A DNA stretch of 64,000 nt, from assembly GCA_963536495.1 (NCBI GenBank), contig CAUTAF010000007.1, forward strand, positions 5,803 through 69,802, written 5' to 3'. This DNA comes from an uncultured Eubacteriales bacterium. GTDB lineage: Bacteria; Bacillota_I; Bacilli_A; RF39; UBA660. This document shows positions 4,402-51,148 of the stretch, one piece after another. A program made the translations under genes and the position numbers. The notes under the pieces are model-generated. The model had not been told where the DNA came from. It ran no database searches and saw nothing but the letters and a program-made list of their open reading frames with translations. Position 1 is the stretch's first letter. Each line of letters opens with the position of its first letter.

Positions 4402-6320
4402 TGTTAATGAAAGAAGAAAAAGTAATTACATTTGATGTATGGGATACATTAATAAAAAGAAAATGTCATCCAGAAGAAATAAAAAAATATATTACTACAT
4501 ATATATTGATTACATATTTTAATAATATAAAAGAAGAAGAAAAAGATGAATATAAGCTTTATTATAAAAGATTAAAAATAGAAGATGATGAGTATAAGAA
4601 AAATACTGAATGTAATATTTATAGTGTATTTGAAAGATTATTAGATGAAATATTAATAGATAAAAAAGATATTAAAAAAATAGTTAATGATCTTGTTGAT
4701 AAAGAAACAGAAAGAGAAATAAAAGTTACTTATGTAAATCCTGATATTTTAAAAATTTTAAAACAATATAAAGATAATAAAAAGTATTGTATTTCTGATT
4801 TTTATATGGGAGAAAAAGAATTATCTAAAATATTAAAACATCATGATTTACTTAAATATTTTACTAAGATTTATTCTTCAGTTGATGTATTAAAAACTAA
4901 AAGAAATAATGGAGAAATATTTAAATATTTTTCTAAAGTAGAAAAGATTGATTTAAATAATATAATTCATGTTGGAGATAATCAAATTTCTGATATTGAT
5001 ATACCAAAAAGTTTGGGTATAGAAACTATCAAAATAGAAAATGTATCTAAATATAATTTAGAAAAAGATAAATTAAATTTAGGATTAGAATCGATTAAAA
5101 AATTAGGAAGTGAAGCAAAAGATAAAACATATAATATTGGTGTTGATTTAGCTCCTTTAGCATATTTTTTTATCTATGATAATATCAAAACTGCATATAG
5201 TTTAGGTTATGATAAAATATATTATCAAACTAGAGAAGGTGAAACTTTTATTAAATTTCATGATTTAATTACGAAAGATAATATCTTTGATTTTAAGATG
5301 GATTCTGAAATATTAGAAGTTTCTAGAGTAGCGACATTTACACCATCTTTAGAAAGAATAGATACAGGTAATTTACTTAGATTATGGGCTCAATATAGAG
5401 AACAAAGTTTAAAATCATTATTTAAAACTTTAAATATTGATATAAAAGAATATAAAGAAAAAATAAAAGAATATAACTTAACTGAAGATGAAGTTATAGC
5501 TAATCCACAATTCGATTTTAGATTATGGAGTTTTCTAGAAGATGAAGAAGTAAGTAAAAAGTTAGAATCAGAAAGAGTCAAGAAAAAAGAAGAGTTAATA
5601 AAATATTTTGAAACTAAGATAAGTAAAATTGATAAAAAAATATATTTAACAGATATTGGATGGAGAGGTACTATTCAAGATAATATTGCATATATTTTTA
5701 AAGATAAACAAATAGATGGTTATTATATATCATTATATGAATATTATAATTATCAACCTAAAAATACTAGAAAATTTGCACTTATAACAGATAAAGAGTT
5801 TTTATATGATACATTTCAATATTTAATAACTTTTTTAGAAAATTGTTTTACACCTGCGAGTGGTTCTGTAATAGGTTATAAAGATAAAAAAGCTATAAGA
5901 AAAGTTATAACTAATGAAAAAGAATTCAATGAAAAACATATCCTTGATATTCAAGAAGGTATGATGGATGGAATTAAAAAGATAAATGAATATATGAAAT
6001 ATAGAAGTGTGTTTAAAAAAGATTACACTCAATATATAGATAATGTTTTAACTGAAATAAAATATAAACCATCTAAAGAAATAGTAGATGTATATACATC
6101 AATAGTACAAAATGATATTTTTGGAACTGGAGATGTAATATCTAAAAATAAAAATATAACTTTTATACAAAAATTAAATCCTTTTTATATTAGAAAAAGA
6201 TTAAGAGATGAAATATGGAAAGAAATAATAGTTAAAAAATATAATTTAAATTTTTATTATGCTTTCTATAAGCTATTAAGTAAGATAAAAAGAATAATTA
6301 AAAAAGAGGCTAAGAAATGA
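4401..6320 (+). CDS. Hypothetical 639-aa protein with an N-terminal HAD-like motif, likely glycopolymer-modifying
   Basis: Begins 'ITFDVWDTLIKR', matching HAD motif I (DxD). Its start overlaps the TagH stop (TAATG). No other motif was recognised. Confidence 0.35.
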   Translation: MLMKEEKVITFDVWDTLIKRKCHPEEIKKYITTYILITYFNNIKEEEKDEYKLYYKRLKIEDDEYKKNTECNIYSVFERLLDEILIDKKDIKKIVNDLVDKETEREIKVTYVNPDILKILKQYKDNKKYCISDFYMGEKELSKILKHHDLLKYFTKIYSSVDVLKTKRNNGEIFKYFSKVEKIDLNNIIHVGDNQISDIDIPKSLGIETIKIENVSKYNLEKDKLNLGLESIKKLGSEAKDKTYNIGVDLAPLAYFFIYDNIKTAYSLGYDKIYYQTREGETFIKFHDLITKDNIFDFKMDSEILEVSRVATFTPSLERIDTGNLLRLWAQYREQSLKSLFKTLNIDIKEYKEKIKEYNLTEDEVIANPQFDFRLWSFLEDEEVSKKLESERVKKKEELIKYFETKISKIDKKIYLTDIGWRGTIQDNIAYIFKDKQIDGYYISLYEYYNYQPKNTRKFALITDKEFLYDTFQYLITFLENCFTPASGSVIGYKDKKAIRKVITNEKEFNEKHILDIQEGMMDGIKKINEYMKYRSVFKKDYTQYIDNVLTEIKYKPSKEIVDVYTSIVQNDIFGTGDVISKNKNITFIQKLNPFYIRKRLRDEIWKEIIVKKYNLNFYYAFYKLLSKIKRIIKKEAKK

Positions 6321-39901: not shown

Positions 39902-42900
39902 ATGAAGAATAAGAAGTTATTAATTGTTTTTGTAGTGTTATTGGTATTAATAACATCTTTTTTATTGTTTATCTTAAAACCAAATACAAAAAATAAAAAA
40001 CTAAAAGAGTTAAATTATAATATAACATATAAACAAGCTTTTCCTGATGAAAATTTAAGAAAGAGTATACTTTTATGTATAATGAGAAATAAGTGTGGGG
40101 AAGAACAGTATAATTCTGGAGCATATAATTTTGAAACATATAGACAAAAACATGATGCAGATTTTGATAATAAATATTATTTTACAAGAACATATGCTAC
40201 TGATACTAGTTTAGGTCCTGTTATTACGGACGATGAAATAAATACTAAAGCAGAAGAACAAATATCAAAAACAGATTTAGATAAAATACAGGTTTTTATA
40301 TCAAATGATTCATATTTTAGCCATGAAGTAACAGGAATAGAATATTTAACAAATTTAAAAGCTGTCGTATTAATAAATTTATATAATTATAATGTTGATT
40401 TTTCATATAATAAAAATTTAGAAAGAGTATTTTTAGGCTATGGTAGTACTTTAAGTTATATTAAAAATGTAAATTTAAATCAAAATACAAAATTAAAAGA
40501 AATAGCTATAAATTTTAATTTTTATGGCAGAAGTAATAAATTAGAATTAGATTATTCTATCCTTAATGACTTAGAAACTTTAATAATTGATTCTCCATTA
40601 GAAGATGATTATATAAGATTACCACTTGGAATCAAAATTTTGAAATTAAAAAATTTTGATATGAAAAGAACAAATTTATCTGAATTAGTTAATTTAAAAG
40701 AACTTGATGTAGATGTTTTTAGAAGTGGTAAAATAGATTTTAGTAAAAATAATAAATTAGAAAAGCTTTATTTATATAATGAAGAAAAAAATAAAAAAAT
40801 AGACAGTTTAGATTTTAGTAATAATCCAAATTTAAAAGAACTAGATATAAATAAAATTGGTATAAAAAATATAAATTTAGATAAAAATATAAATTTAGAA
40901 AAAATAAAATTTTCAGGAAATAATATTAATGAATTAGATTTATCTAAAAATATTAATCTTAAAGATGTTATTTTAAGTAATAACAATATTACAAATATAA
41001 AATTAAATAGTGAAAAAGTAGAAAAGTTAGATTTATCTGATAATAAGTATTTAAAAAACATAAATGTAACTAGACTTTCTAATTTAAAATATTTAAATCT
41101 TGATAATACAATGATTAAGACTGATACAATAGATTTTAGTAAAAATCCTCTTTTAGAAGAAGTTTATATAAAATATATTCCAAATCCATCTCAAGGTTAT
41201 TATCCTGCTGATGATAAAAGTCCGATAAATATAAACAGTTTAGATTTTAGTAATAATCTTAATTTAAAAACATTAAAAGTAAAAGCTAAATTAAAAAAAT
41301 TAAATATAGAAAGAAATATTAATTTAAAAGACCTTGATATTAGTATAAATAATATTACAGATTTAAAAGCTCCTAATCATTTAAATTATAACACTTCTCA
41401 ATGGATAAAAATAAAAGTAAAAAAAGATACAGATATAGAAATTCCAGTTAATTTTAATGGAGAAAAATTATATTTAAATCCTACTAGTTATATTATACGT
41501 AATGGAGATAAATATAGATTTACTGCAAAAGGAAAATTCGAGGAATCAATTTGTTCTACTAAAAACGGATTTAATTATTGCCTTTATTTAAATATTGAAG
41601 TGTTATATAAAGATGAAAATATTGATTCTTCATTAACATTAATTGATCAAACAACTGAAGATTATAGACCAGGAATAAATGAAGAAATAGATGTTAATCA
41701 AATAAGAAGAATGATTACAAATTTACCGGCAAATACGAAAAAGTTTGAAATTGTAGAACCTAAACCTGCTAAGTTTAAAGAAAAAGGCAAAAACATATTA
41801 AAAGTTAAAGTTACTTTTGATGATGATACATCTAAAGTATATAATTTACCAATTAATATTTATGAAAAAATATATAATTCAGTTGAATTTGACAGAAAAA
41901 TTAATGGAGAACCAGTAAATATTTTAGAAAAAGAAGGTAAATGTATTTTCCCATGTGGAATAGAAACATTTGAAAATAAAGAATTTAATTATGTAAGACA
42001 TAGACAATATATAAGAACAAATTGTAATTGTCCAGGTGAAGAGTTTAATGATACTAATTTGCTTGCTCGTGTAAATGATAAAGTTTTAAGTTATGAATAT
42101 ATTGGTTTACCAAATGGCTTATCAGCAGACGAAAATGGAATACATGGCAAGATTGACTATAAATGGAAAGAAAATGAAAAAGAACATACTTTTTATGTAG
42201 TATATAAAGAAAAAGGTCATGCTTATAATATTGAAGAAACTATTAAAATAAAAGTTTTAAGAGATACAGATAAAGACGGAATACCAGATAGTGAAGATGA
42301 TGATGTGGATTCTGATGGCTTTAGTGATGTAGATGAACTTAAAGCTGGAAGTAATCCATATGATAAAAATTCAACACCTTTAAATGTAACAAATGTATCA
42401 AAAAATACTGAGGCAGATAAGTTTAATCCGATAATAGATCAAAAAGATTTTAAACCTTTGACAACTCAAACTTTATCAAAAGAAAAAGTAAAAGAAATGA
42501 TAACTAATTTACCAACTGATATTAAAAGCTTTAAAGTTCTTACAACTATATATGATAAATATACAGAAAATGCGAAAACAAAAATAACTGTTTTAATAAC
42601 ATTTAAAGATAATAGTAAAAAAGAATTTGATGTACCTATTAAATTTTATAAAGAAGAATTTATTAGACAGATAATAAATATTGAAGAAACTACATCTATA
42701 ATAGAAGGTAAGACTCTTAATCTAGATGTAAAAATAAGATATAACGAAGAAGAAAGAATTGATGAAACTAATTTAATAAAATATGTTTATGAAAAACAAA
42801 AATATTATTACTATACTTCTTTACCACAAGGTTTAAAATATACTTCTAATAAAATAAGTGGAGTAATTGATTATAAATTTCTAGGTGAAGAAGAGGAAAA

Positions 42901-43846
42901 CGTTTTTTATGTAACTTATTATGAAGGAACAAATCCAAAAACATCATTTAAAATTAAACTTTTAAGAGATACAGATTCTGACGGAATCGCAGATAAAGAT
43001 GATGATGATAAAGATGGAGACGGAGTAAGTAATGATGAAGAAACAGCTAATGGAAGTGATCCATATAATAAGAATATAGTACCAGGAATGACTAAAAAAC
43101 AAATACTTGATGTACTTGTTAATGATTTAGAAAAACTAATTAATGATAGTAAAAATAATAATTTTGAAAATAAGAGTAAAATATATGTAGATAATTTTAA
43201 AGAACATATAGCTGAAAAAAACAAAAAATTAAAAGAAATAAAAATATCTTATAATGATACAACATCTGATACAGAATTAGTAAAATTAATTGAAGAAGTT
43301 AAAGAAGAAATAAATAATATAAAAGAAGGAATAAATAATATAGAAGATAAAGCTAATTTTGAAGTTTTAGATAAAGAATTATCCAATATTTTATTAAAAG
43401 AAGATTATTATACTGAAAATATATATGAAGGATATTTGAAATTAATCAAAGAAGCTAAAAATTTATCTAAAGATACTGCAACACAACAAGAAGTAGATTA
43501 TATGGTTTCTTCATTAAATAGAGAAAAAAATATGGTCATTGATGATAAAACTAAATTAAAAGAAAAAATAAAAGAATTAAAAGAACAATTAGATAATGGA
43601 CAATGTCAAGAAGAAGAGTGTAGTTATATAAAAGATAAAATATTATTTTTATATAGTGAAGAAGGTATTTGTGATTCTGTTTCAATAGAAGAATTGATAG
43701 AAATAGTAGAAATATCAAAAGATTTATTTAAAAAGAGTTCACTTAAAAATCCAAAAACTGGTATAAAAACATATAGTTTAATAATTCTATTTATAATATT
43801 AATTAGTTATAAATTAATTAAGAAAAATAAAAATTATATAAGATAA
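39902..43846 (+). CDS. Cell-wall-anchored LRR surface protein, paralog 4 (1314 aa; two TSP3-like repeats; NPKTG)
   Basis: N-terminal 40 aa almost identical to paralog 2. LRRs are present. 'VLRDTDKDGIPDSEDDDVDSDGFSD' and 'LLRDTDSDGIADKDDDDKDGDGVSN'. C-terminus 'NPKTGIKTYSLIILFIILISYKLIKKNKNYIR'. Confidence 0.7.
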   Translation: MKNKKLLIVFVVLLVLITSFLLFILKPNTKNKKLKELNYNITYKQAFPDENLRKSILLCIMRNKCGEEQYNSGAYNFETYRQKHDADFDNKYYFTRTYATDTSLGPVITDDEINTKAEEQISKTDLDKIQVFISNDSYFSHEVTGIEYLTNLKAVVLINLYNYNVDFSYNKNLERVFLGYGSTLSYIKNVNLNQNTKLKEIAINFNFYGRSNKLELDYSILNDLETLIIDSPLEDDYIRLPLGIKILKLKNFDMKRTNLSELVNLKELDVDVFRSGKIDFSKNNKLEKLYLYNEEKNKKIDSLDFSNNPNLKELDINKIGIKNINLDKNINLEKIKFSGNNINELDLSKNINLKDVILSNNNITNIKLNSEKVEKLDLSDNKYLKNINVTRLSNLKYLNLDNTMIKTDTIDFSKNPLLEEVYIKYIPNPSQGYYPADDKSPININSLDFSNNLNLKTLKVKAKLKKLNIERNINLKDLDISINNITDLKAPNHLNYNTSQWIKIKVKKDTDIEIPVNFNGEKLYLNPTSYIIRNGDKYRFTAKGKFEESICSTKNGFNYCLYLNIEVLYKDENIDSSLTLIDQTTEDYRPGINEEIDVNQIRRMITNLPANTKKFEIVEPKPAKFKEKGKNILKVKVTFDDDTSKVYNLPINIYEKIYNSVEFDRKINGEPVNILEKEGKCIFPCGIETFENKEFNYVRHRQYIRTNCNCPGEEFNDTNLLARVNDKVLSYEYIGLPNGLSADENGIHGKIDYKWKENEKEHTFYVVYKEKGHAYNIEETIKIKVLRDTDKDGIPDSEDDDVDSDGFSDVDELKAGSNPYDKNSTPLNVTNVSKNTEADKFNPIIDQKDFKPLTTQTLSKEKVKEMITNLPTDIKSFKVLTTIYDKYTENAKTKITVLITFKDNSKKEFDVPIKFYKEEFIRQIINIEETTSIIEGKTLNLDVKIRYNEEERIDETNLIKYVYEKQKYYYYTSLPQGLKYTSNKISGVIDYKFLGEEEENVFYVTYYEGTNPKTSFKIKLLRDTDSDGIADKDDDDKDGDGVSNDEETANGSDPYNKNIVPGMTKKQILDVLVNDLEKLINDSKNNNFENKSKIYVDNFKEHIAEKNKKLKEIKISYNDTTSDTELVKLIEEVKEEINNIKEGINNIEDKANFEVLDKELSNILLKEDYYTENIYEGYLKLIKEAKNLSKDTATQQEVDYMVSSLNREKNMVIDDKTKLKEKIKELKEQLDNGQCQEEECSYIKDKILFLYSEEGICDSVSIEELIEIVEISKDLFKKSSLKNPKTGIKTYSLIILFIILISYKLIKKNKNYIR

Positions 43847-43921: not shown

Positions 43922-45094
43922 ATGAGAAGACTATTTACATCAATAGAATTAAGTTCTAATTATATAAAACTTATCATATTAGAAAAAGTTCAAAATAAAT
44001 TTTATTGTTTATATTCTGATGTTACTAATTGTCATGGAATATCTAAAGGTTTAATTAATGATAGTAATGAAGTAATTACATCGTTAAAAAATGTTTTAAA
44101 GAAAGCAAGAGATAAAACTAATTTAAAAATAGATAAAGTTATTTTAACAATAAGTCCAATAGATGCTAATTTTATGGTAGTTTCTGCTACTAATTATATA
44201 GAAAATATAGATGGAATAGTTACTCAAAACTTTATTGATAAAAGTTTAAATAAAGCAGTTGATAGTAAAAAAGATTTAAAAGATGAATTAGTTATGACTA
44301 GTCCAGTTAGTTTTAGTTTAGATGAAAAAACAGTTTTAGATCCAGTTGGAATGAATGGGAATAAACTTTATATAAAAGCAGTAGCATCTACTATGGCAAA
44401 GAAAAATCTATATCCATTTTTTAATGTCTTTAATACTTTAAACATAGATGTTTTAGATGTTTGTTATTCTTTAGTTGGAGATTTTGAACTTAATCAATCT
44501 AAAAATAACAAATTAGAACATGGAGTAGTAGTTAATATAGAAGAAGATATAGTAAATATAGGTATATTTAATAAAGGTATATTAATAAAAACTGATTATT
44601 TAAAAATTGGAAGTAATGCTATAGATAAAGATATTAAATATATTTATAATCTAAAAGATGAAGATATTAAATATTTAAAAGAAAATTTTGCATCATTATC
44701 TAGTAGAGTTAATTATAAATATGATACAATTGAACTTAATACTAGTAGTGGTAATTTAATTAAAATAAAAGAAAGTGATGTAGTTAATCTTATTACTAGT
44801 AGAGTTGTTAATATTTTAGATTTAGTAAAAAATAAATATAAAACCTTAACAAATAAAGAAATTAATTATATAATTGTAACAGGAGAATTGACAGAATTAA
44901 GTGGATTTTCTCAAGTTGTAGAAAAAGTTTTAGGACCAAAAAGTAAAATTGGTAATATAAAACTTATTGGAGCTAGAAATAATATATATTCTAGTGTTAT
45001 AGGATCTATATATTATCTAGAAATAAAATATAAAGATATTGGAATGCTAAATTCTTTAGAAATAGAAAAAATAAATTCTAAAGAGTATGAATAA
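43922..45094 (+). CDS. ftsA: Cell division protein FtsA (actin-like ATPase)
   Basis: 390 aa immediately upstream of ftsZ. The N-terminal 'SIELSSNYIKLIILEK' resembles the FtsA phosphate-1 region. The sequence is divergent. Confidence 0.6.
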   Translation: MRRLFTSIELSSNYIKLIILEKVQNKFYCLYSDVTNCHGISKGLINDSNEVITSLKNVLKKARDKTNLKIDKVILTISPIDANFMVVSATNYIENIDGIVTQNFIDKSLNKAVDSKKDLKDELVMTSPVSFSLDEKTVLDPVGMNGNKLYIKAVASTMAKKNLYPFFNVFNTLNIDVLDVCYSLVGDFELNQSKNNKLEHGVVVNIEEDIVNIGIFNKGILIKTDYLKIGSNAIDKDIKYIYNLKDEDIKYLKENFASLSSRVNYKYDTIELNTSSGNLIKIKESDVVNLITSRVVNILDLVKNKYKTLTNKEINYIIVTGELTELSGFSQVVEKVLGPKSKIGNIKLIGARNNIYSSVIGSIYYLEIKYKDIGMLNSLEIEKINSKEYE

Positions 45095-45108: not shown

Positions 45109-46212
45109 ATGTTTGATGAATTAACTAATGTAAGAGCTGCTAATATTAAGGTAATAGGTGTTGGTGGTGGTGGTTGTAAAGCCGTTAATAGAATGAAAGA
45201 AACAGTTGAAGGTGTAACTTTTATTATTGCTAATACTGATTTACAAGATTTAACTACAGCTAATGCTGATGTTAAAATTCAATTAGGACAAGAGTTAACT
45301 GGAGGAAGAGGAAGTGGTGCTAAGCCAGAAGTAGGTAAAAAAGCAGCACAAGAATCTAAAAAAGATATAGAAGATGCATTACAAGGTGCACACATGGTAT
45401 TTATTACTTGTGGAGAAGGTGGAGGAACTGGAACAGGAGCTGCTCCAGTAATAGCTGAAATAGCACAAAATTTAGGAGCATTAACAGTAGCAGTAGTTAC
45501 AAAACCATTTTCTTTTGAAGGTAAATCTAGAATGAAGAATGCTCAATTAGGTATAGAAGAATTAAGAAAACATGTTGATTCTTTAATAGTAGTACCTAAT
45601 GATAATCTAGAAACTTTAATAGATAAGAACACTCCAGTATTACAAGCTTTTGGAGAAGTTGATAATGTATTAAGACAAAGTGTTCAATCAATTTCAGATT
45701 TAATTAATTTCCCTGGAGATATTAACTTAGACTTTTCAGATATTACAACTACTATGAAAGATAGTGGAACAGCAGTAATAGGTATTGGGGTAGGTACTGG
45801 AGAAGATAGAGCTATTCAAGCAGCTAAACAAGCTGTTCAATCTCCTCTTTTAGAAAAATCTATAGTTGGAGCTACTAAAGCAATTATTAACATAACTGGT
45901 GGAAGTAACTTAACATTATATGAAACAAAACAAGCAGTTAAGATTATTGAAAGTTATGCACAAACAGATTTAAATGTATTCTATGGAACTATAATTAATA
46001 AAAATATTAGTGATGATCAAATTATTGTTACAGTAATAGCAACAGGATTTGAAGAATATACTAAAAAACCAATTGAAGAAGAACAAGAAGTAATAGATAC
46101 ACAAAAAAGAGAAGAAAAACCAGTTGTTAATAATGTAAATAATTCATATGATGATATAGATACAGATGGGGATTATGTATTACCAAATTTTTTAAGAAAT
46201 AGAAATTATTAG
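45109..46212 (+). CDS. ftsZ: Cell division GTPase FtsZ
   Basis: '[13 protein letters not shown]' and the tubulin signature '[16 protein letters not shown]'. Confidence 0.95.
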
Positions 46213-46214
46213 AA
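46134..46214 (+). repeat. 81-bp direct repeat copy 1 (3' end of ftsZ). Copy 2 at 47110-47190 has 3 mismatches.
   Basis: aatgtaaataattcatatgatgatatagatac(a/g)gatgg(g/a)gattat/cgtattaccaaattttttaagaaatagaaattattagaagttatattta. Confidence 0.85.
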
Positions 46215-46609
46215 GTTATATTTAAATTAAATACTTTTAAAGTTCACGCTAAATAAAAATAATATATAAATATATTAAAAGTTATTTAGAAAGAACTTTA
46301 GAGGTATTTTTTATATCTAAACATAAAAATGGATTTTAGAAGATAAAGTCAAAATAGTTAAAAACTAAAAAAATGAATTATTAAATATTAAAATAATAAA
46401 TATGATAATATAAAAATATAAAAATATAAAATGTTTTATTGAAAATTAAAAAATTAGTTATTAGTTATGCTTTAATTTTTAAAATATATAATTAAAAATG
46501 CTAATAGATATATAAATTTAGATTTTGATATGTTTATATATATTGATAGATTTAAAAGTAGAGAAAAAATAAATGTTAAAAAATATTGGAAGGATATAAG
46601 GATTGTATA

Positions 46610-47101
46610 ATGAATATAAAAACAAATGATATTAGAATAAAAAATGATGAGTATAATTTTCATTTTAGAGTAGTAGCTATAATAGAACAAAATAATAAAT
46701 TTTTAATACAAAGAATAGAAGGATATGATTATTATATTTTACCTGGAGGACATGTTAATTTAGGAGAAGATAGTATTACTGCTATAAAACGTGAGGTTAA
46801 AGAAGAAGTTGGTTGCGATATTAAAGATTCAAAATTAATTTGTTTTCATGAAAATTTTTATTTAAATAAAGGACGACAAGAACATTGGATTGAAAATTAT
46901 TTTCTTATAAAACCAATGAAAAAACTTTCTGAAGAAAATTGGACATTTGTGGAAAAAGATAAAGAAGCAGAAAAAACTTTACATTTTTATTGGATGAGTA
47001 AGGAAGATATAAAAAAAATAAATTTAAAACCAACATCTATAAAAGATTTAATTATAAGTGATAAAATTAGTGGTTTTAATTATTTAATTAATAATAAATG
47101 A
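46610..47101 (+). CDS. NUDIX hydrolase
   Basis: Nudix box 'GGHVNLGEDSITAIKREVKEEVG'. The ATG at 46610 has an AAGGA RBS; the ORF track starts at 46586. Confidence 0.7.
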   Translation: MNIKTNDIRIKNDEYNFHFRVVAIIEQNNKFLIQRIEGYDYYILPGGHVNLGEDSITAIKREVKEEVGCDIKDSKLICFHENFYLNKGRQEHWIENYFLIKPMKKLSEENWTFVEKDKEAEKTLHFYWMSKEDIKKINLKPTSIKDLIISDKISGFNYLINNK

Positions 47102-47109
47102 AAAATAAA

Positions 47110-47190
47110 AATGTAAATAATTCATATGATGATATAGATACGGATGGAGATTACGTATTACCAAATTTTTTAAGAAATAGAAATTATTAG
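47110..47190 (+). repeat. 81-bp direct repeat copy 2: a pseudo-3'-end of ftsZ that retains the intact terminator
   Basis: See 46134-46214. Confidence 0.85.
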
Positions 47191-47218
47191 AAGTTATATT
47201 TATAACTTCTTTTTATTT
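47183..47218 (+). terminator. Rho-independent terminator (the ancestral ftsZ terminator, now downstream of the NUDIX gene)
   Basis: GAAGTTATA-ttt-ATAACTTC followed by TTTTTATTTT. The copy after ftsZ itself (46207-46230) is disrupted after the loop. Confidence 0.6.
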
Positions 47219-47248
47219 TAAAGTCTTTAGTTTATAATATATTGTATT

Positions 47249-49762
47249 ATGAAAAGAAACGAAGTAGATAGAACAAAAATTAGCCCGATGATGAGACAAT
47301 ATCTTGAAGTAAAAGATGAATATCTAGATGCTATAGTATTTTATAGATTAGGTGACTTTTACGAGATGTTTTTTGAAGATGCAGTAATTGGATCTAAAGA
47401 ATTAGAACTTGCACTTACTGGAAGAGATGCATCGCTAGATGAAAGAGTGCCAATGTGTGGTGTTCCTGCTAAAGCATATAGTGTTTATGTAGAAAAGTTA
47501 GTTGAAAAAGGTTATAAAGTAGCAATATGTGAACAATTAGAAGATCCTAAAACTACTAAAGGTATGGTAAAAAGAGGAGTTATACAAGTTATTACTAAAG
47601 GAACTATACTTGATAACTTTATAGATTCTAAAACATCTAATTATATTGCTAATATATATGCTTTTTCATATTGTTATGGTATATCTTATACAGATATTAC
47701 AACAGGATATTTTTATGCTTTTATAATAGATAAAGATGTAGAAAAAACTATCTTAAAAGAAAATATTAAAGAAGTAATAGTAACTAGTAATACAAGTAAA
47801 GAAATAGTTAATAATTTAAGAAATAATAATGTTTTAGTTACGATAAGTGATGATATTAATACTAATCAAGAATATAGTTATTTATATAAAGATTTAGAAG
47901 ATGAAAGATTAAAAATAACAGCAAGTCACTTATTATCATATTTAGAATATGTTAAAAAAGGTGACTTAAAACATTTACAAAAAATCGTTAGTTTAAAAGC
48001 TAATAACTTCTTAGAATTTGATGATAACACTGTAAGAAATTTAGAATTAGTTAAGACATTAAGAACTAAAGAAAGAAAAAATTCTTTACTAGGTTTTATA
48101 GATAAAACTGAAACTGCTATGGGTTCTAGAGCTTTAGAATATAATTTACTTCATCCACTAAGAGATAAAAAAGAAATAGAAAAAAGATATGATCAAGTAG
48201 AAAAACTTTTAACAGAGTTTATTATATCTAGCGAATTAAAAGAAGTATTAAATAATATCTATGACTTAGAAAGAATAGTATCTAGAATATCTTATGGTAA
48301 TTTAAGTGGTAAAGATTTATTACAATTAAAAAATAGTATCTATTATTTAAAAGATTTAAAAAAAATAATTAAAGAGTTAAATTTTGATTATGAAATAGAT
48401 ACACTAGATGATTTATATAACTTATTAGAAAGTTCAATTAACGAAGATATACCTATATTATTAAATGAAGGTAATTTAATAAAGAGTGGTTATTCTAAAG
48501 AATTAGATGACTTAAGAGAAATTAAAAATAATTCTAAAAAATATATACTTGAACTAGAAAGAGCTGAAAGAGAAAAAACTGGTATAAAAACTTTAAAAAT
48601 ATCTTATAACAAAGTATTTGGTTATTATATAGAGATAACTAAAGCAAGTTTAAAAGATATTAAATTAGATGGTTATATTAGAAAACAAACATTATTTAAT
48701 GCAGAAAGATTTATTACAGAGGAACTAAAAGAAAAAGAAGATATTATTTTAAATGCTTCTTTAAAGATAAATGCTTTAGAATATGATTTATTTACTGAAG
48801 TTAAAGAAAAAGTTAAGACTTATTTAGAACCTATTCAAAAAAATGCTAAAAATATAGCACAGATTGATATGATATTATCTTTTGCAACAATAAGTAGTAA
48901 TCATTCTTTAGTAAGACCTAAGTTAAATGAAGAAAATATCGTCGATATAGAAAATGGTCGTCATTTAATAGTTGAAAGTGTTACTAATAACTATGTAGAT
49001 AATTCTATAAAGATGAAAGAAGATACATCTATACTTTTAATAACAGGACCTAATATGGCTGGTAAAAGTACTTATATGAGAGAACTTGCTTTAATAGTTA
49101 TAATGGCTCAAATGGGATGTTTTGTACCTGCTAAAAGTGCAAATATTATGATTTTTGATAAGATATTTACAAGAATTGGAGCAAGTGATGATTTAATATC
49201 TGGAGATTCTACATTTATGATAGAGATGAAAGAAGCTAGTTTTGCATTATCATCTGCTACTAAGAATTCTTTAATCCTATTTGATGAACTTGGAAGAGGT
49301 ACTGCAACATATGATGGTATGTCTCTTGCACAAGCTATGCTTGAATATATTCATAATGAAATAGGAGCTAAGACACTTTTTTCAACTCATTATCATGAAC
49401 TTACTAATCTTACAAAAGACTTAAAACACTTGAAAAATGTGCATGTAAAAGCTATAGTAGAAGATAAGAATATAATATTTTTACATAAGATAGAAAATGG
49501 AAGTGTAGATAAGAGTTATGGAGTTAATGTAGCTCATTTAGCAGGAGTTAATAAAGAGATAGTGACAAGAGCAACTGAGATTTTAAATACTTACGAAAAG
49601 AAGAAAAAAACAAAAGAGATAATACAAGATTCATTTGTTTTTGAAGAAGAAAAAGAAGAATCTAATTTATTAGAAAAAATAAAAGAAAAAGATTTAAATT
49701 CTATGACGCCTCTTGATGCACTTAATTTCTTATATGAATTAAAAAAGGATATGGAGGATTAA
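47249..49762 (+). CDS. mutS: DNA mismatch repair protein MutS
   Basis: N-terminal 'SPMMRQYLEVK', Walker A 'TGPNMAGKSTYMR' and 'DELGRGT'. Length is 837 aa. Confidence 0.9.
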   Translation: MKRNEVDRTKISPMMRQYLEVKDEYLDAIVFYRLGDFYEMFFEDAVIGSKELELALTGRDASLDERVPMCGVPAKAYSVYVEKLVEKGYKVAICEQLEDPKTTKGMVKRGVIQVITKGTILDNFIDSKTSNYIANIYAFSYCYGISYTDITTGYFYAFIIDKDVEKTILKENIKEVIVTSNTSKEIVNNLRNNNVLVTISDDINTNQEYSYLYKDLEDERLKITASHLLSYLEYVKKGDLKHLQKIVSLKANNFLEFDDNTVRNLELVKTLRTKERKNSLLGFIDKTETAMGSRALEYNLLHPLRDKKEIEKRYDQVEKLLTEFIISSELKEVLNNIYDLERIVSRISYGNLSGKDLLQLKNSIYYLKDLKKIIKELNFDYEIDTLDDLYNLLESSINEDIPILLNEGNLIKSGYSKELDDLREIKNNSKKYILELERAEREKTGIKTLKISYNKVFGYYIEITKASLKDIKLDGYIRKQTLFNAERFITEELKEKEDIILNASLKINALEYDLFTEVKEKVKTYLEPIQKNAKNIAQIDMILSFATISSNHSLVRPKLNEENIVDIENGRHLIVESVTNNYVDNSIKMKEDTSILLITGPNMAGKSTYMRELALIVIMAQMGCFVPAKSANIMIFDKIFTRIGASDDLISGDSTFMIEMKEASFALSSATKNSLILFDELGRGTATYDGMSLAQAMLEYIHNEIGAKTLFSTHYHELTNLTKDLKHLKNVHVKAIVEDKNIIFLHKIENGSVDKSYGVNVAHLAGVNKEIVTRATEILNTYEKKKKTKEIIQDSFVFEEEKEESNLLEKIKEKDLNSMTPLDALNFLYELKKDMED

Positions 49763-51148
49763 ATGACTTTAGAAGATATTTATGAAAATGTTAAAAATCC
49801 ACTTAATGATGAAGTGTTACAAGAAATATATGATAATTATCAAAAGCTTCCGACATTTTTTTTAATAGTAGGTAAAAAAACGAGTAATAAAACTTATGAT
49901 ATTTTAGAAAGAGATTATTACAATAAATTTTTGTTTTCTATTTGGAAAAATAGCATCTTAAATTTATCTCTTGAAAGAATAGAAGAGTTAGAAAAAAGAA
50001 ATAATTATAAAGATATAAGAAGAATAAGAGAGTTTTTAAAACAAGATAATACTAATTTAGATACTACTTATGATATAGCAAATTTTTTAGTTAATAATTC
50101 TTTAGATAAAGCTTATTTTTGTGATGTTAAAAATTTAATTAATCATAGATATATTCATACGATGAGTGGGAAAATCGATTTAGAAAAAGATGATGATTTT
50201 TTTGTTGATCATAGATTATATGTAAATATAGATAATGAAGATATATATCTTTTGGCACATAAATTTGTAGAAAAATGTAGAGAAAAAGATATACCATTTT
50301 ATTTTAAATTTAAAGATTCAGATAATAGACAAGATAATTTTGTAATTTATTCTGATACTAAAAATTTAATAAAATATATGGAGTGTTTAGATGAAGTGTT
50401 TAGTCAAAATAAAAATATTTCTAATACTTCTAATTCTTCTTTAATGTTTACTGGTAAGATTAATGAAAATTATTCAATAGGAGATGAACCTTTCCAAAAG
50501 TCAGAAAAACTAGCATCGTTTAATGGTATAAGAAGTAAGTCGATTGATAATGCTATGAAAAAAACTATAAAATATTGGTTATATAAGAATCAATATAGAA
50601 AAGTATCAAGAAAAATAGATGGTCAAGAAAAAATAATGGATTTTAAAGAATATGTAGCAAGTAATATAGTAAAACTATTATCTGAAGATATGTTTTATGA
50701 AAAAGATGAATATAAAATTTATCATACATTAAAAAAATCAGCTTTTATTGGAAGAAATAAAGAAAAACTAACTAAAAGTATTGCTAGTGAAATAGATAAA
50801 TATATTAATAATAAAGATATGAGTTTAATAAAAGTTTACGAAGCAGATGATTTAGATCCATCTAGATTTGAAAGTGAAGAAATAAAAAAAATATTTGAAA
50901 AAAAATTAGAAACTATGAAGTATAAAGTGAAAGAACAGCTTGGAGTAGTATCTACTGATATTATAGAAAAGTATATTAATACAACATTAACTGATAAAAT
51001 ATTACATAAATTTGATAACTGTAAAGATATTTTTGAATTGTTTTTAAAAGAAGAATTTAAAAATAATTATATTGATATAGAAAAACCATGTTTTAATGTA
51101 TGGACTAAAGAAAAATTTAAAGAAAATAAAGAAGAAAAACATATATAA
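49763..51148 (+). CDS. Hypothetical 461-aa protein translationally coupled to mutS, occupying the usual mutL position
   Basis: Its ATG directly abuts the mutS TAA. No motif was recognised. Coding quality is good. Confidence 0.4.
   Translation: MTLEDIYENVKNPLNDEVLQEIYDNYQKLPTFFLIVGKKTSNKTYDILERDYYNKFLFSIWKNSILNLSLERIEELEKRNNYKDIRRIREFLKQDNTNLDTTYDIANFLVNNSLDKAYFCDVKNLINHRYIHTMSGKIDLEKDDDFFVDHRLYVNIDNEDIYLLAHKFVEKCREKDIPFYFKFKDSDNRQDNFVIYSDTKNLIKYMECLDEVFSQNKNISNTSNSSLMFTGKINENYSIGDEPFQKSEKLASFNGIRSKSIDNAMKKTIKYWLYKNQYRKVSRKIDGQEKIMDFKEYVASNIVKLLSEDMFYEKDEYKIYHTLKKSAFIGRNKEKLTKSIASEIDKYINNKDMSLIKVYEADDLDPSRFESEEIKKIFEKKLETMKYKVKEQLGVVSTDIIEKYINTTLTDKILHKFDNCKDIFELFLKEEFKNNYIDIEKPCFNVWTKEKFKENKEEKHI

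What the first reader, a model, noticed from the sequence alone, without database searches (positions are those of the whole stretch)
46134..47218. NUDIX hydrolase gene inserted into the ftsZ terminator with an 81-bp target duplication
The last 81 nt of ftsZ (46134-46214) are repeated, with three mismatches, at 47110-47190 immediately after the NUDIX gene. Only the distal copy keeps the intact stem-loop terminator (GAAGTTATA-ttt-ATAACTTC followed by T-run). The proximal copy loses it after the loop. Between the repeats lie ~370 bp of very AT-rich non-coding DNA with 'aaaatataaaaatataaaatg'-type iterations, and a NUDIX gene with its own RBS. This looks like insertion of a ~0.9-kb segment by duplication of the target, or illegitimate recombination at the ftsZ 3' end. 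It places a nucleotide-pyrophosphatase gene directly downstream of the division genes and upstream of mutS. NUDIX enzymes such as MutT-like sanitises act with mismatch repair, so the location is suggestive.
Basis: seen in the sequence. Interest (0 to 1): 0.55.

Follow-up and report, generated by a model that had tools for sequence, protein, structure and literature searches.

The report
Decayed gene cassette inserted behind ftsZ
In some strains of an uncultured human oral bacterium, a small three-gene nucleotide-metabolism cassette was inserted into the ftsZ terminator and copied the last ~95 bases of ftsZ; this window carries a shrunken remnant with only a NUDIX gene, which is tidy but ordinary genome evolution.

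Summary
The repeat is real. Window 46128-46224 recurs at 47106-47202 (97 nt, 4 mismatches), against none expected by chance. Contigs encoding the identical FtsZ protein show a presence/absence polymorphism. Seven distinct places have ftsZ, an intact hairpin and mutS with a 58-nt spacer. Every filled site has the ftsZ 3' end on both sides of the insert. Two sister species are empty, so empty is ancestral.

The original insert was not a NUDIX gene. It was a ~2.8-kb operon: a Tmk-like kinase, a P-loop-kinase/NUDIX fusion and a HIT hydrolase. The window's 0.9-kb version lost about 1.2 kb and 0.7 kb by two deletions, and part of its "non-coding" DNA is a frameshifted kinase-domain remnant.

All variants share one leader and the same junctions, which argues for a single event rather than a mobile element. 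The three mismatches are standing synonymous ftsZ polymorphisms.

The insert begins with its own strong hairpin and T-run, so co-transcription with ftsZ is doubtful. The NUDIX is not a MutT equivalog, and its position beside mutS looks incidental.

Copy 2 forms a 30-aa ORF encoding the FtsZ C-terminal peptide, but its start codon is not conserved. How the duplication arose is unresolved.

The parts
45109..46212 (+). ftsZ (367 aa), intact; its last 25 codons lie in repeat copy 1
   Evidence: ORF list; Pfam Tubulin 3.5e-49 and FtsZ_C 3.8e-26
46128..46224 (+). Direct repeat copy 1: ftsZ 3' end ([25 protein letters not shown]) plus the left arm and loop of the original terminator. The ancestral boundary is about 46130, judged from the L035 junction.
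46229..46312 (+). First feature of the insert: 81-nt imperfect palindrome (46229-46309) followed by a T-run, terminator-like. It is present in all five insert variants aligned.
   Evidence: fold -28 kcal/mol, z -6.05, 0/200 shuffles; alignment and consensus fold with no compensatory changes; unique in the window
46313..46444 (+). Rest of the shared cassette leader up to the left edge of deletion 1. It contains a window-lineage 8-nt tandem expansion (AATATAAA x3, 46408-46431).
   Evidence: alignment A1; blastn window 46213-46424 = L016 insert 1-217, 94%
46445..46609 (+). Pseudogene remnant: frameshifted, stop-containing relic of residues ~139-200 of the 364-aa P-loop-kinase/NUDIX fusion protein
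   Evidence: tblastn of the L016 364-aa protein, frames 3 and 1, e.g. IIKNANRYINLDFDMFIYIDRFKSREKINVKKY
46610..47101 (+). Stand-alone NUDIX-domain ORF (163 aa). It is the surviving C-terminal domain of the fusion protein. The Nudix box GHVNLGEDSITAIKREVKEEVGC is intact.
   Evidence: codons 1-98 show 6 variable codons, all synonymous, across 6 variants
47098..47190 (+). 30-aa [33 protein letters not shown]. Its ATG overlaps the NUDIX TGA (ATGA), and it encodes the FtsZ C-terminal peptide. Probably not a functional gene.
   Evidence: translate; start codon not conserved among variants; called as a gene in 6 contigs read
47106..47202 (+). Direct repeat copy 2 (displaced ftsZ 3' end)
47190..47219 (+). 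Original ftsZ terminator: hairpin GAAGTTATA/TATAACTTC plus T-run, identical to that of the empty sites
47249..49762 (+). mutS (837 aa), the native downstream neighbour of ftsZ
   Evidence: Pfam MutS I-V; 58-nt ftsZ-mutS spacer in empty sites

Best explanation
This is a strain-variable insertion that arose once in an uncultured, very AT-rich human oral Bacillota species.

One event placed a ~2.8-kb accessory operon into the loop of the ftsZ terminator hairpin. The operon carries a terminator-like hairpin leader, a Tmk-like kinase, a P-loop-kinase/NUDIX fusion, a HIT hydrolase and a short tail. The event duplicated ~95 nt (46130-46224), which is the last 25 codons of ftsZ, its stop codon and the left half of the hairpin. 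ftsZ therefore stayed intact. The displaced copy, with the original terminator, ended up in front of mutS.

The cassette then spread or was lost among strains by homologous recombination in the flanks. Loss by recombination between the two repeats is possible but inferred. The cassette also decayed.

In the window's lineage two deletions left only the NUDIX domain as a stand-alone ORF. Deletion 1 (~1.2 kb) removed the Tmk-like gene and the first ~138 codons of the fusion. Deletion 2 (~0.7 kb) removed the HIT gene and tail. The catalytic core of the surviving ORF is still under purifying selection. It is probably a nucleotide house-cleaning or salvage pyrophosphatase of unknown substrate.

The three mismatches between the repeats are ordinary synonymous ftsZ polymorphisms, brought in when either flank recombined with other alleles.

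The duplication is a mechanical by-product of the insertion. My best guess is a one-off Campbell-type single crossover of a circular intermediate carrying ~95 nt of ftsZ, or a replication template switch at the hairpin. This step is inferred, not shown. The position next to mutS is incidental.
For: Empty versus filled sites in contigs encoding the identical 367-aa FtsZ: 7 distinct empty places, 2 NUDIX-only and 1 trio. Further filled contigs are L035, L036, L037 and L043-46.

Every filled site has two ftsZ-3' copies and every empty site has one.

Sister species (FtsZ 94% and 92% identical) are empty with an intact hairpin.

Single origin: all variants share the same left junction, GTTATATTTA|AATTAAATAC, and the same leader. 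The window insert equals L016 insert 1-217 + 1384-2083 + 2745-2923.

Direction of change: the window carries stop- and frameshift-riddled remains of the kinase domain. The trio or the fusion-HIT pair also exists as an operon in other organisms at other loci: L010 at 68% nt identity over 2.4 kb, plus L042 and L038-41.

The mismatch positions GGG/GGA and TAT/TAC segregate among empty-site ftsZ alleles (L013, L014). The two copies differ by 0 to 3 nt depending on the strain.

Filled haplotypes do not cluster on either flank.

NUDIX codons 1-98 have 6 of 6 variable codons synonymous.

No integrase or transposase was seen in any variant. No convincing terminal inverted repeats were found. No copy of the cassette or leader was found in phage, plasmid or viral-contig collections. 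The only >59% relative of the HIT protein sits at this same site.
Against: The mechanism that produced a 95-nt duplication is not demonstrated. No donor locus, circular intermediate or microhomology-defining parental sequence was found.

Cassette variants differ by 6-9%, while the flanks differ by ~1-1.5%. I attribute this to neutral or relaxed evolution, roughly comparable with synonymous divergence in the flanks. Repeated import from diverged lineages is not excluded.

L035 carries the cassette on a sister-like downstream haplotype. Transfer across lineages therefore occurs, which a site-specific mechanism would also explain.

Expression of the stand-alone NUDIX is unproven. Its original promoter region may lie in deletion 1, and promoter scans are at chance level in this AT-rich DNA.
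Confidence: 0.75

Rival explanations
1. The cassette is a non-autonomous integrative element, comparable to a CIME or a satellite islet. Its attachment site is the ftsZ 3' end and terminator. A tyrosine or serine recombinase encoded elsewhere inserts and excises it, and the 95-nt repeats are attL and attR.
For: The architecture matches integrase-made islands. The direct repeats are made of the target gene's 3' end, the gene is kept intact, and related strains have precise empty sites. The cassette occurs on different flanking haplotypes, including a sister-like one in L035. The junction lies inside a hairpin and next to a second large palindrome.
Against: None of the cassette-bearing contigs examined (window, L016, L017, L019, L035-L037, L043-L046) carries a recombinase. 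All variants descend from one cassette with identical junctions, so there is no sign of recurrent insertion. No attP-like or extrachromosomal copy was found in viral, phage or plasmid collections. Homologous operons in other species sit at unrelated loci without ftsZ-like repeats.
Confidence: 0.12
2. The distal repeat is a functional micro-gene. The 30-aa product (or 26-51 aa in other strains) is a free FtsZ C-terminal peptide. It competes with FtsZ for FtsA, SepF or EzrA and so modulates cell division. It would be translationally coupled to NUDIX through the ATGA overlap.
For: An in-frame ATG overlaps the NUDIX stop in the window and in L017. L035 has a TTG start with a good Shine-Dalgarno sequence (AGAGGTG) giving a 51-aa product. 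Within the 24 codons after the boundary codon, all copy-2 changes are synonymous. In E. coli, 30-aa fragments from the extreme FtsZ C-terminus are inhibitory in vivo and are predicted to bind FtsA (PMC10769210).
Against: The start codon is missing in L016 and L019. Only a GTG without a Shine-Dalgarno sequence is present in L036 and L037, and the N-terminal extension differs in every variant. The synonymous pattern is explained by standing ftsZ polymorphism and recombination or gene conversion. The two copy-2-private synonymous changes are too few to be significant. The window's ATG has no Shine-Dalgarno sequence. Most strains lack the ORF altogether.
Confidence: 0.06
3. One reading: the NUDIX is a MutT-like nucleotide-pool sanitiser recruited next to mutS to act with mismatch repair, and it is co-transcribed with ftsZ through the broken terminator.
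For: The Nudix box is intact, and the top NCBIfam and PDB names include 'MutT'. The original hairpin is disrupted at copy 1.
Against: MutT equivalog models score 29.6 and 22.9 bits against cutoffs of 97.9 and 148, with matches confined to the Nudix box. The best PDB hit, 2pqv, is named only 'MutT/nudix family protein'. The native partners of this NUDIX are two kinases and a HIT hydrolase, not mutS. Most strains and the sister species lack it. A new -28 kcal/mol hairpin with a T-run sits 5 nt after the junction.
Confidence: 0.05
4. The duplication is an assembly artefact.
For: Repeats of about 100 nt can mislead short-read assemblers. The L035 contig breaks inside the cassette.
Against: The same structure was recovered by different assemblers from many samples, with strain-specific SNPs that distinguish the two copies.
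Confidence: 0.01

Closest known systems
attL/attR repeats of integrase-borne islands that target the 3' end of a gene (tRNA/tmRNA-targeting islands; ICESt1/ICESt3 in the fda 3' end; their integrase-less CIME derivatives). Comparison from my own knowledge.
   Same: The insert is bracketed by direct repeats that reproduce the target gene's 3' end. The gene stays intact. Relatives have precise empty sites. The element is small and lacks an integrase, like a CIME.
   Different: No recombinase in any variant. The repeat is 95 nt, at the long end for such sites. All variants trace to one event. No other cargo occurs at the site, and the element occurs at no other site. No extrachromosomal form was found.
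Campbell-type single-crossover integration of circular DNA (as with non-replicating plasmids in Bacillus subtilis, where roughly 70 bp or more of homology is reported to suffice). Comparison from my own knowledge.
   Same: It necessarily yields the insert flanked by two copies of the homology segment. 95 nt is in the workable range. The two copies can carry different alleles.
   Different: The required circle, carrying ftsZ nt 46130-46224 joined to the cassette, has not been observed and would need a prior event to form.
Tmk-like kinase / AAA_18-NUDIX fusion / HIT hydrolase operon of related uncultured Bacillota (L010, L042; fusion-HIT pair in L038-L041)
   Same: Same gene order and domain architecture. 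L010 is 68% nt identical over 2.4 kb. The L010 NUDIX protein (P0008) is 58% identical over residues 92-363 of the fusion.
   Different: Those copies sit at unrelated chromosomal loci without ftsZ-derived repeats. The window retains only the NUDIX domain.
MutT 8-oxo-dGTP diphosphatase (TIGR00586 / NF008044)
   Same: Nudix fold and an intact Nudix box.
   Different: Far below the equivalog cutoffs. The conserved gene partners differ. There is no conserved linkage to mutS.
Inhibitory C-terminal fragments of FtsZ (30-aa fragment scans in E. coli; PMC10769210)
   Same: The 30-aa ORF at 47098-47190 encodes exactly this class of fragment, the last 25 residues including the conserved LPNFLRNR motif.
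   Different: Those fragments were expressed artificially. Here translation is unproven, and the start codon is not conserved among strains.

Membership tests
MutT / 8-oxo-dGTP diphosphatase | Scores at or above the curated equivalog cutoff of TIGR00586 or NF008044 | tested here: not met
   29.6 bits vs 97.9, and 22.9 vs 148; the match covers only residues 23-78
MutT / 8-oxo-dGTP diphosphatase | Nudix box GX5EX7REUXEEXGU | tested here: met
   GHVNLGEDSITAIKREVKEEVGC read from the translation. This feature is shared by the whole superfamily, so it is not diagnostic.
MutT / 8-oxo-dGTP diphosphatase | 8-oxo-dGTP hydrolysis and antimutator phenotype | not testable with these tools
   Needs an enzyme assay or complementation of a mutT mutant
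NUDIX superfamily (PF00293) | Pfam gathering score | tested here: met
   48.3 bits vs 21.1
Integrase-mediated island / CIME at a gene 3' end | Direct repeats made of the target gene's 3' end flank the insert, and relatives have empty sites | tested here: met
Integrase-mediated island / CIME at a gene 3' end | A site-specific recombinase in the element or in a fuller variant of it | tested here: not met
   No such gene in the window, L016, L017, L019, L035-37 or L043-46
Integrase-mediated island / CIME at a gene 3' end | Recurrent use of the site (independent cargo), or copies of the element elsewhere or in circular form | tested here: not met
   All variants share one leader and junction. No hit in viral contigs, phages or plasmids. 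Read-level excision was not testable.
Transposon / IS insertion with target-site duplication | Short target-site duplication (about 2-15 bp), terminal inverted repeats and a transposase | tested here: not met
   The duplication is ~95 nt. There is no transposase ORF. The best inverted repeat is 17/19 and lies 125 and 45 nt inside the ends, with about 3 such matches expected by chance by my estimate.
Campbell-type single-crossover integration | The insert is flanked by two copies of one homology segment, and a circular donor carries that segment | tested here: inconclusive
   The product structure fits, but no donor molecule was found
Rho-independent terminator (leader hairpin 46229-46312) | Stable stem-loop immediately followed by a U-tract | tested here: met
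   -28 kcal/mol, z -6.05, followed by a run of six T (the first three paired in the fold) then ATAT. The consensus scanner misses it because the stem has fewer than 3 G-C pairs in its first 20 and the loop is long. Actual termination was not testable.

The most novel reading that the evidence does not exclude
The displaced ftsZ 3' copy is translated as a free FtsZ C-terminal peptide. In the window this would happen through ATGA stop-start coupling to NUDIX. In L035 it would be a 51-aa protein with its own Shine-Dalgarno sequence. The peptide would act as a decoy for FtsA and other FtsZ-tail binders. The strain-variable cassette would then tune, or poison, cell division. That would be a natural counterpart of the inhibitory FtsZ tail fragments so far known only from engineered libraries.
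Probability: 0.06. Interest if true: 0.7.

Novelty: new member of a known kind. Interest (0 to 1): 0.3.

Why it matters
This is a clean, population-resolved example of how an accessory operon enters a core-gene neighbourhood and then erodes. It entered the division gene cluster, next to mismatch repair, without damaging an essential gene.

The insertion split a terminator, copied the essential gene's tail, brought its own terminator, and then decayed to a single domain that is still under selection.

It also corrects an attractive but unsupported functional inference, that NUDIX next to mutS means MutT-like cooperation.

Two features go beyond the ordinary. The first is the unusually long (95-nt) duplication with no recombinase in sight. 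The second is that the duplication creates an ORF for the FtsZ C-terminal peptide, a fragment class reported to inhibit division when expressed. Neither is shown to be functional here.

Tried and rejected
- Exact look-up of the window's NUDIX protein (163-aa and 171-aa versions) found nothing on record.
- NUDIX homologues at 65% identity or less gave only unrelated contexts. This was useful as negative evidence for mutS linkage.
- Searches for the ftsZ-3' sequence and for the leader in viral contigs gave 0 hits. The HIT protein had no relative in viral contigs. The L016 insert against phages gave no match, and against plasmids gave one 145-nt AT-rich match at 72%, which I treat as spurious.
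- Rfam and tRNA scans of the window found nothing.
- Promoter scans are at or below chance in this 12-25% GC DNA, so they are uninformative.
- I first took the all-synonymous mismatches as possible evidence of selection on copy 2. I rejected this once the same variants were seen segregating in empty-site ftsZ alleles.
- I first considered the site a hotspot with independent cargos (NUDIX versus trio). I rejected this when the NUDIX-only form proved to be a deletion derivative of the trio.
- PADLOC hits (PDC-S07, ThsC-like HIT, PDC-M51B) are weak and domain-level, so I did not take them as evidence of a defence system.
- The leader palindrome is not a multicopy element in the window or in the fetched loci.
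- I skipped structure prediction of the NUDIX, because fold alone would not assign a substrate.
- One literature search for ftsZ as an integration site returned nothing relevant.
Full report
**1. The observation.**
The window holds ftsA (43922-45094), ftsZ (45109-46212), a NUDIX ORF (46610-47101) and mutS (47249-49762), all on the + strand. The repeat finder reports a two-copy direct repeat, 46128-46224 and 47106-47202, of 97 nt with 4 mismatches and a spacing of 978. An 84-nt core occurs exactly twice at up to 3 mismatches, with none expected in 100 shuffles.

The repeat covers the last 25 codons of ftsZ, the TAG stop and the first 12 nt after it. Those 12 nt are the left arm and loop of the terminator hairpin. 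Only the distal copy continues into the right arm and T-run. That hairpin folds at -11.1 kcal/mol, identical to empty sites. The proximal junction folds at -4.4 kcal/mol, no better than shuffled sequence.

**2. It is a genuine insertion, polymorphic within one species.**
I looked up contigs encoding exactly the window's 367-aa FtsZ. Seven distinct places have ftsZ followed 58 nt later by mutS. Two have a 163- or 168-aa NUDIX gene in between (L017, L019). One has three genes in between (L016): a Tmk-like kinase of 204 aa, an AAA_18 kinase/NUDIX fusion of 364 aa and a HIT hydrolase of 208 aa.

Every empty site has one copy of the ftsZ 3' sequence and an intact hairpin. Every filled site has two copies bracketing the insert. 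More filled contigs came from other searches: L035, L036 and L037, and L043-L046. One of these is labelled a human oral metagenome. The two nearest species-level MAGs (FtsZ 94% and 92% identical, named only as uncultured Eubacteriales/Clostridiales) and four further contigs of the first are empty with an intact hairpin. Empty is therefore the ancestral state. Assembly artefact is excluded by the number of independent assemblies.

**3. What was inserted.**
The window's insert aligns to the L016 insert in three blocks: 1-217 (94%), 1384-2083 (91%) and 2745-2923 (90.5%). It is therefore the L016-type cassette minus about 1.2 kb and about 0.7 kb.

The direction of change is clear for two reasons. 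Second, the same operon exists in other organisms at unrelated loci. The trio is found in L010 (68% nt identity over 2.4 kb) and L042, and the fusion-HIT pair in L038-41.

All variants share the same left junction (GTTATATTTA|AATTAAATAC) and the same ~220-nt leader. This argues for one ancestral event followed by decay, not repeated insertions.

**4. The mismatches.**
The three internal differences (ACA/ACG, GGG/GGA, TAT/TAC) are all synonymous in the ftsZ frame. I first took this as a hint of selection on copy 2. However, GGG/GGA and TAT/TAC segregate among ftsZ alleles of empty sites (L013, L014). The two copies differ by 0 nt in L019, L043 and L044, by 2 nt in L017 and by 3 nt in the window. 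They are standing polymorphisms, distributed by recombination of either flank with other alleles. Consistent with this, filled haplotypes do not cluster on the ftsA-ftsZ side or on the mutS side.

**5. The start of the insert.**
Five nucleotides after the junction, the insert opens with an 81-nt imperfect palindrome (46229-46309) followed by a T-run. It folds at -28 kcal/mol, z = -6.05, and none of 200 shuffles folds as well. It is conserved in all five variants aligned, though without compensatory changes. It is unique in the window.

It looks like a replacement terminator for ftsZ. This makes the proposed co-transcription of NUDIX with ftsZ doubtful. Promoter scans are uninformative in DNA of 12-25% GC, so how the stand-alone NUDIX is expressed remains open.

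**6. The NUDIX protein.**
It is a bona fide NUDIX domain (48.3 bits against a 21.1 cutoff) with an intact Nudix box. No NCBIfam equivalog is approached: MutT scores 29.6 against 97.9, and YtkD, RppH, NudE and the others are all far below cutoff. The best solved structure by sequence is 2pqv, named only 'MutT/nudix family protein'.

Homologues of 50-65% identity lie among Ham1, MazG, other NUDIX genes and acetyltransferases, or in the kinase/HIT operon. None lies next to mutS or ftsZ.

Across six cassette variants, codons 1-98 have six variable codons, all synonymous. Codons 99-163 have 23 variable codons, of which 19 are nonsynonymous. The catalytic core is therefore constrained, including in NUDIX-only lineages, while the C-terminal third evolves about neutrally or under diversifying pressure.

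I infer a still-functional nucleotide pyrophosphatase of unknown substrate. The neighbour genes suggest house-cleaning or salvage. The link to mismatch repair is not supported.

**7. The mini-ORF.**
Copy 2 is preceded in frame by an ATG that overlaps the NUDIX stop (ATGA). This gives [30 protein letters not shown], 30 aa, at 47098-47190. Gene callers have called it in 6 contigs read.

It encodes the FtsZ C-terminal peptide. The LPNFLRNR motif corresponds, from my knowledge, to the conserved tail that binds FtsA and other partners. Thirty-residue fragments of the extreme FtsZ C-terminus are inhibitory in E. coli (PMC10769210).

The start is not conserved, however:
- ATG in the window and in L017
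- TTG with a good Shine-Dalgarno sequence in L035, giving 51 aa
- only a GTG without a Shine-Dalgarno sequence in L036 and L037
- none in L016 and L019

I treat this as an accidental ORF and keep the decoy idea as the most novel reading not excluded (about 6%).

**8. Mechanism of the duplication.**
A 95-nt duplication is far beyond transposase target-site duplications. There are no convincing terminal inverted repeats and no transposase. The architecture resembles attL/attR of integrase-borne islands at gene 3' ends. However, no variant carries a recombinase, the site has been used once, and no extrachromosomal or viral/plasmid copy was found. The only close relative of the HIT gene is at this same site.

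I therefore favour a one-off event. One option is a Campbell-type single crossover of a circle carrying ~95 nt of ftsZ. The other is a replication template switch that left the ftsZ template in the hairpin loop and returned 95 nt upstream. This step is inference, since the donor was not found. Loss by recombination between the repeats is plausible but cannot be distinguished from ancestral empties.

**9. Verdict.**
The insertion-with-duplication reading is supported. The identity of the inserted unit, the nature of the AT-rich spacer, the transcription model and the MutT/MutS inference all need correction. This is a well-resolved but essentially ordinary accessory-gene indel, with one unusual structural feature (a long duplication of an essential gene's tail) and one speculative consequence (an ORF for the FtsZ tail peptide).

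Noticed in passing
window 46229-46312: An 81-nt imperfect palindrome plus T-run at the very start of the insert (-28 kcal/mol, z -6). It is among the most stable 100-nt segments of the whole 64-kb window despite ~13% GC. It is terminator-like, but could also be a recombination-prone structure next to the junction.
   Followed up: partly
window 46904-47098 (NUDIX codons 99-163): The C-terminal third of the NUDIX protein has 19 nonsynonymous changes among 23 variable codons across six strains, while codons 1-98 have none. The window allele has six private amino-acid changes here. This could be relaxed or diversifying selection.
   Followed up: partly
L035 (reverse strand) 2124-2279; L016 9813-9899; L036 ~5777-5833: A small ORF with a strong Shine-Dalgarno sequence (AGAGGTG-N6-TTG) follows the HIT gene in all trio variants examined. 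In L035 it runs in frame into the ftsZ copy, giving a 51-aa product with a hydrophobic N-terminus plus the FtsZ tail, which has been called as a gene (P0042). In L016, L036 and L037 it is cut short by 1-nt indels.
   Followed up: partly
L016 7229-7247 and 9829-9847: An inverted repeat TTTAGAAGAYAAAGTCRAA (17/19) lies in the leader and in the tail of the full cassette, 125 and 45 nt inside its ends. About three such matches are expected by chance, so it may mean nothing. The right arm is deleted in the window.
   Followed up: no
window 39902-43846: The 1314-aa surface-type protein upstream of ftsA (LRR-like repeats, faint Rib/TSP3 hits, C-terminal hydrophobic anchor) is highly length-variable between strains with identical FtsZ. 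Lengths run from 915 to 1326 aa, and the gene is sometimes split.
   Followed up: no
window 49763-51148: mutS is followed, with a 1-nt gap, by a 461-aa protein with only a weak HopA1 effector-family hit (24.4 bits against a 22.7 cutoff), not by mutL. The gene is conserved at this position in all strains, and as an ORF of similar length (445-460 aa) in the sister species.
   Followed up: no
L001-L006: The closest stand-alone NUDIX homologues (60% identity) sit in a strain-variable cluster of small 'house-cleaning' and modification enzymes. The cluster includes Ham1, MazG, two other NUDIX genes, APH, several GNAT acetyltransferases, CYTH and YkuD, with alternative gene sets between samples.
   Followed up: no
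L035 vs window, downstream of copy 2: One cassette-bearing contig has the sister-species type of terminator loop (aat) and spacer, and a divergent gene after mutS. The cassette, or its flanks, has therefore moved between diverged lineages by recombination.
   Followed up: partly
L016/L010/L042 operon: The three cassette proteins give weak PADLOC hits: PDC-M51B for the Tmk-like kinase, PDC-S07 for the NUDIX and a ThsC-like match for the HIT. These are domain-level only, and a defence role was not examined further.
   Followed up: no
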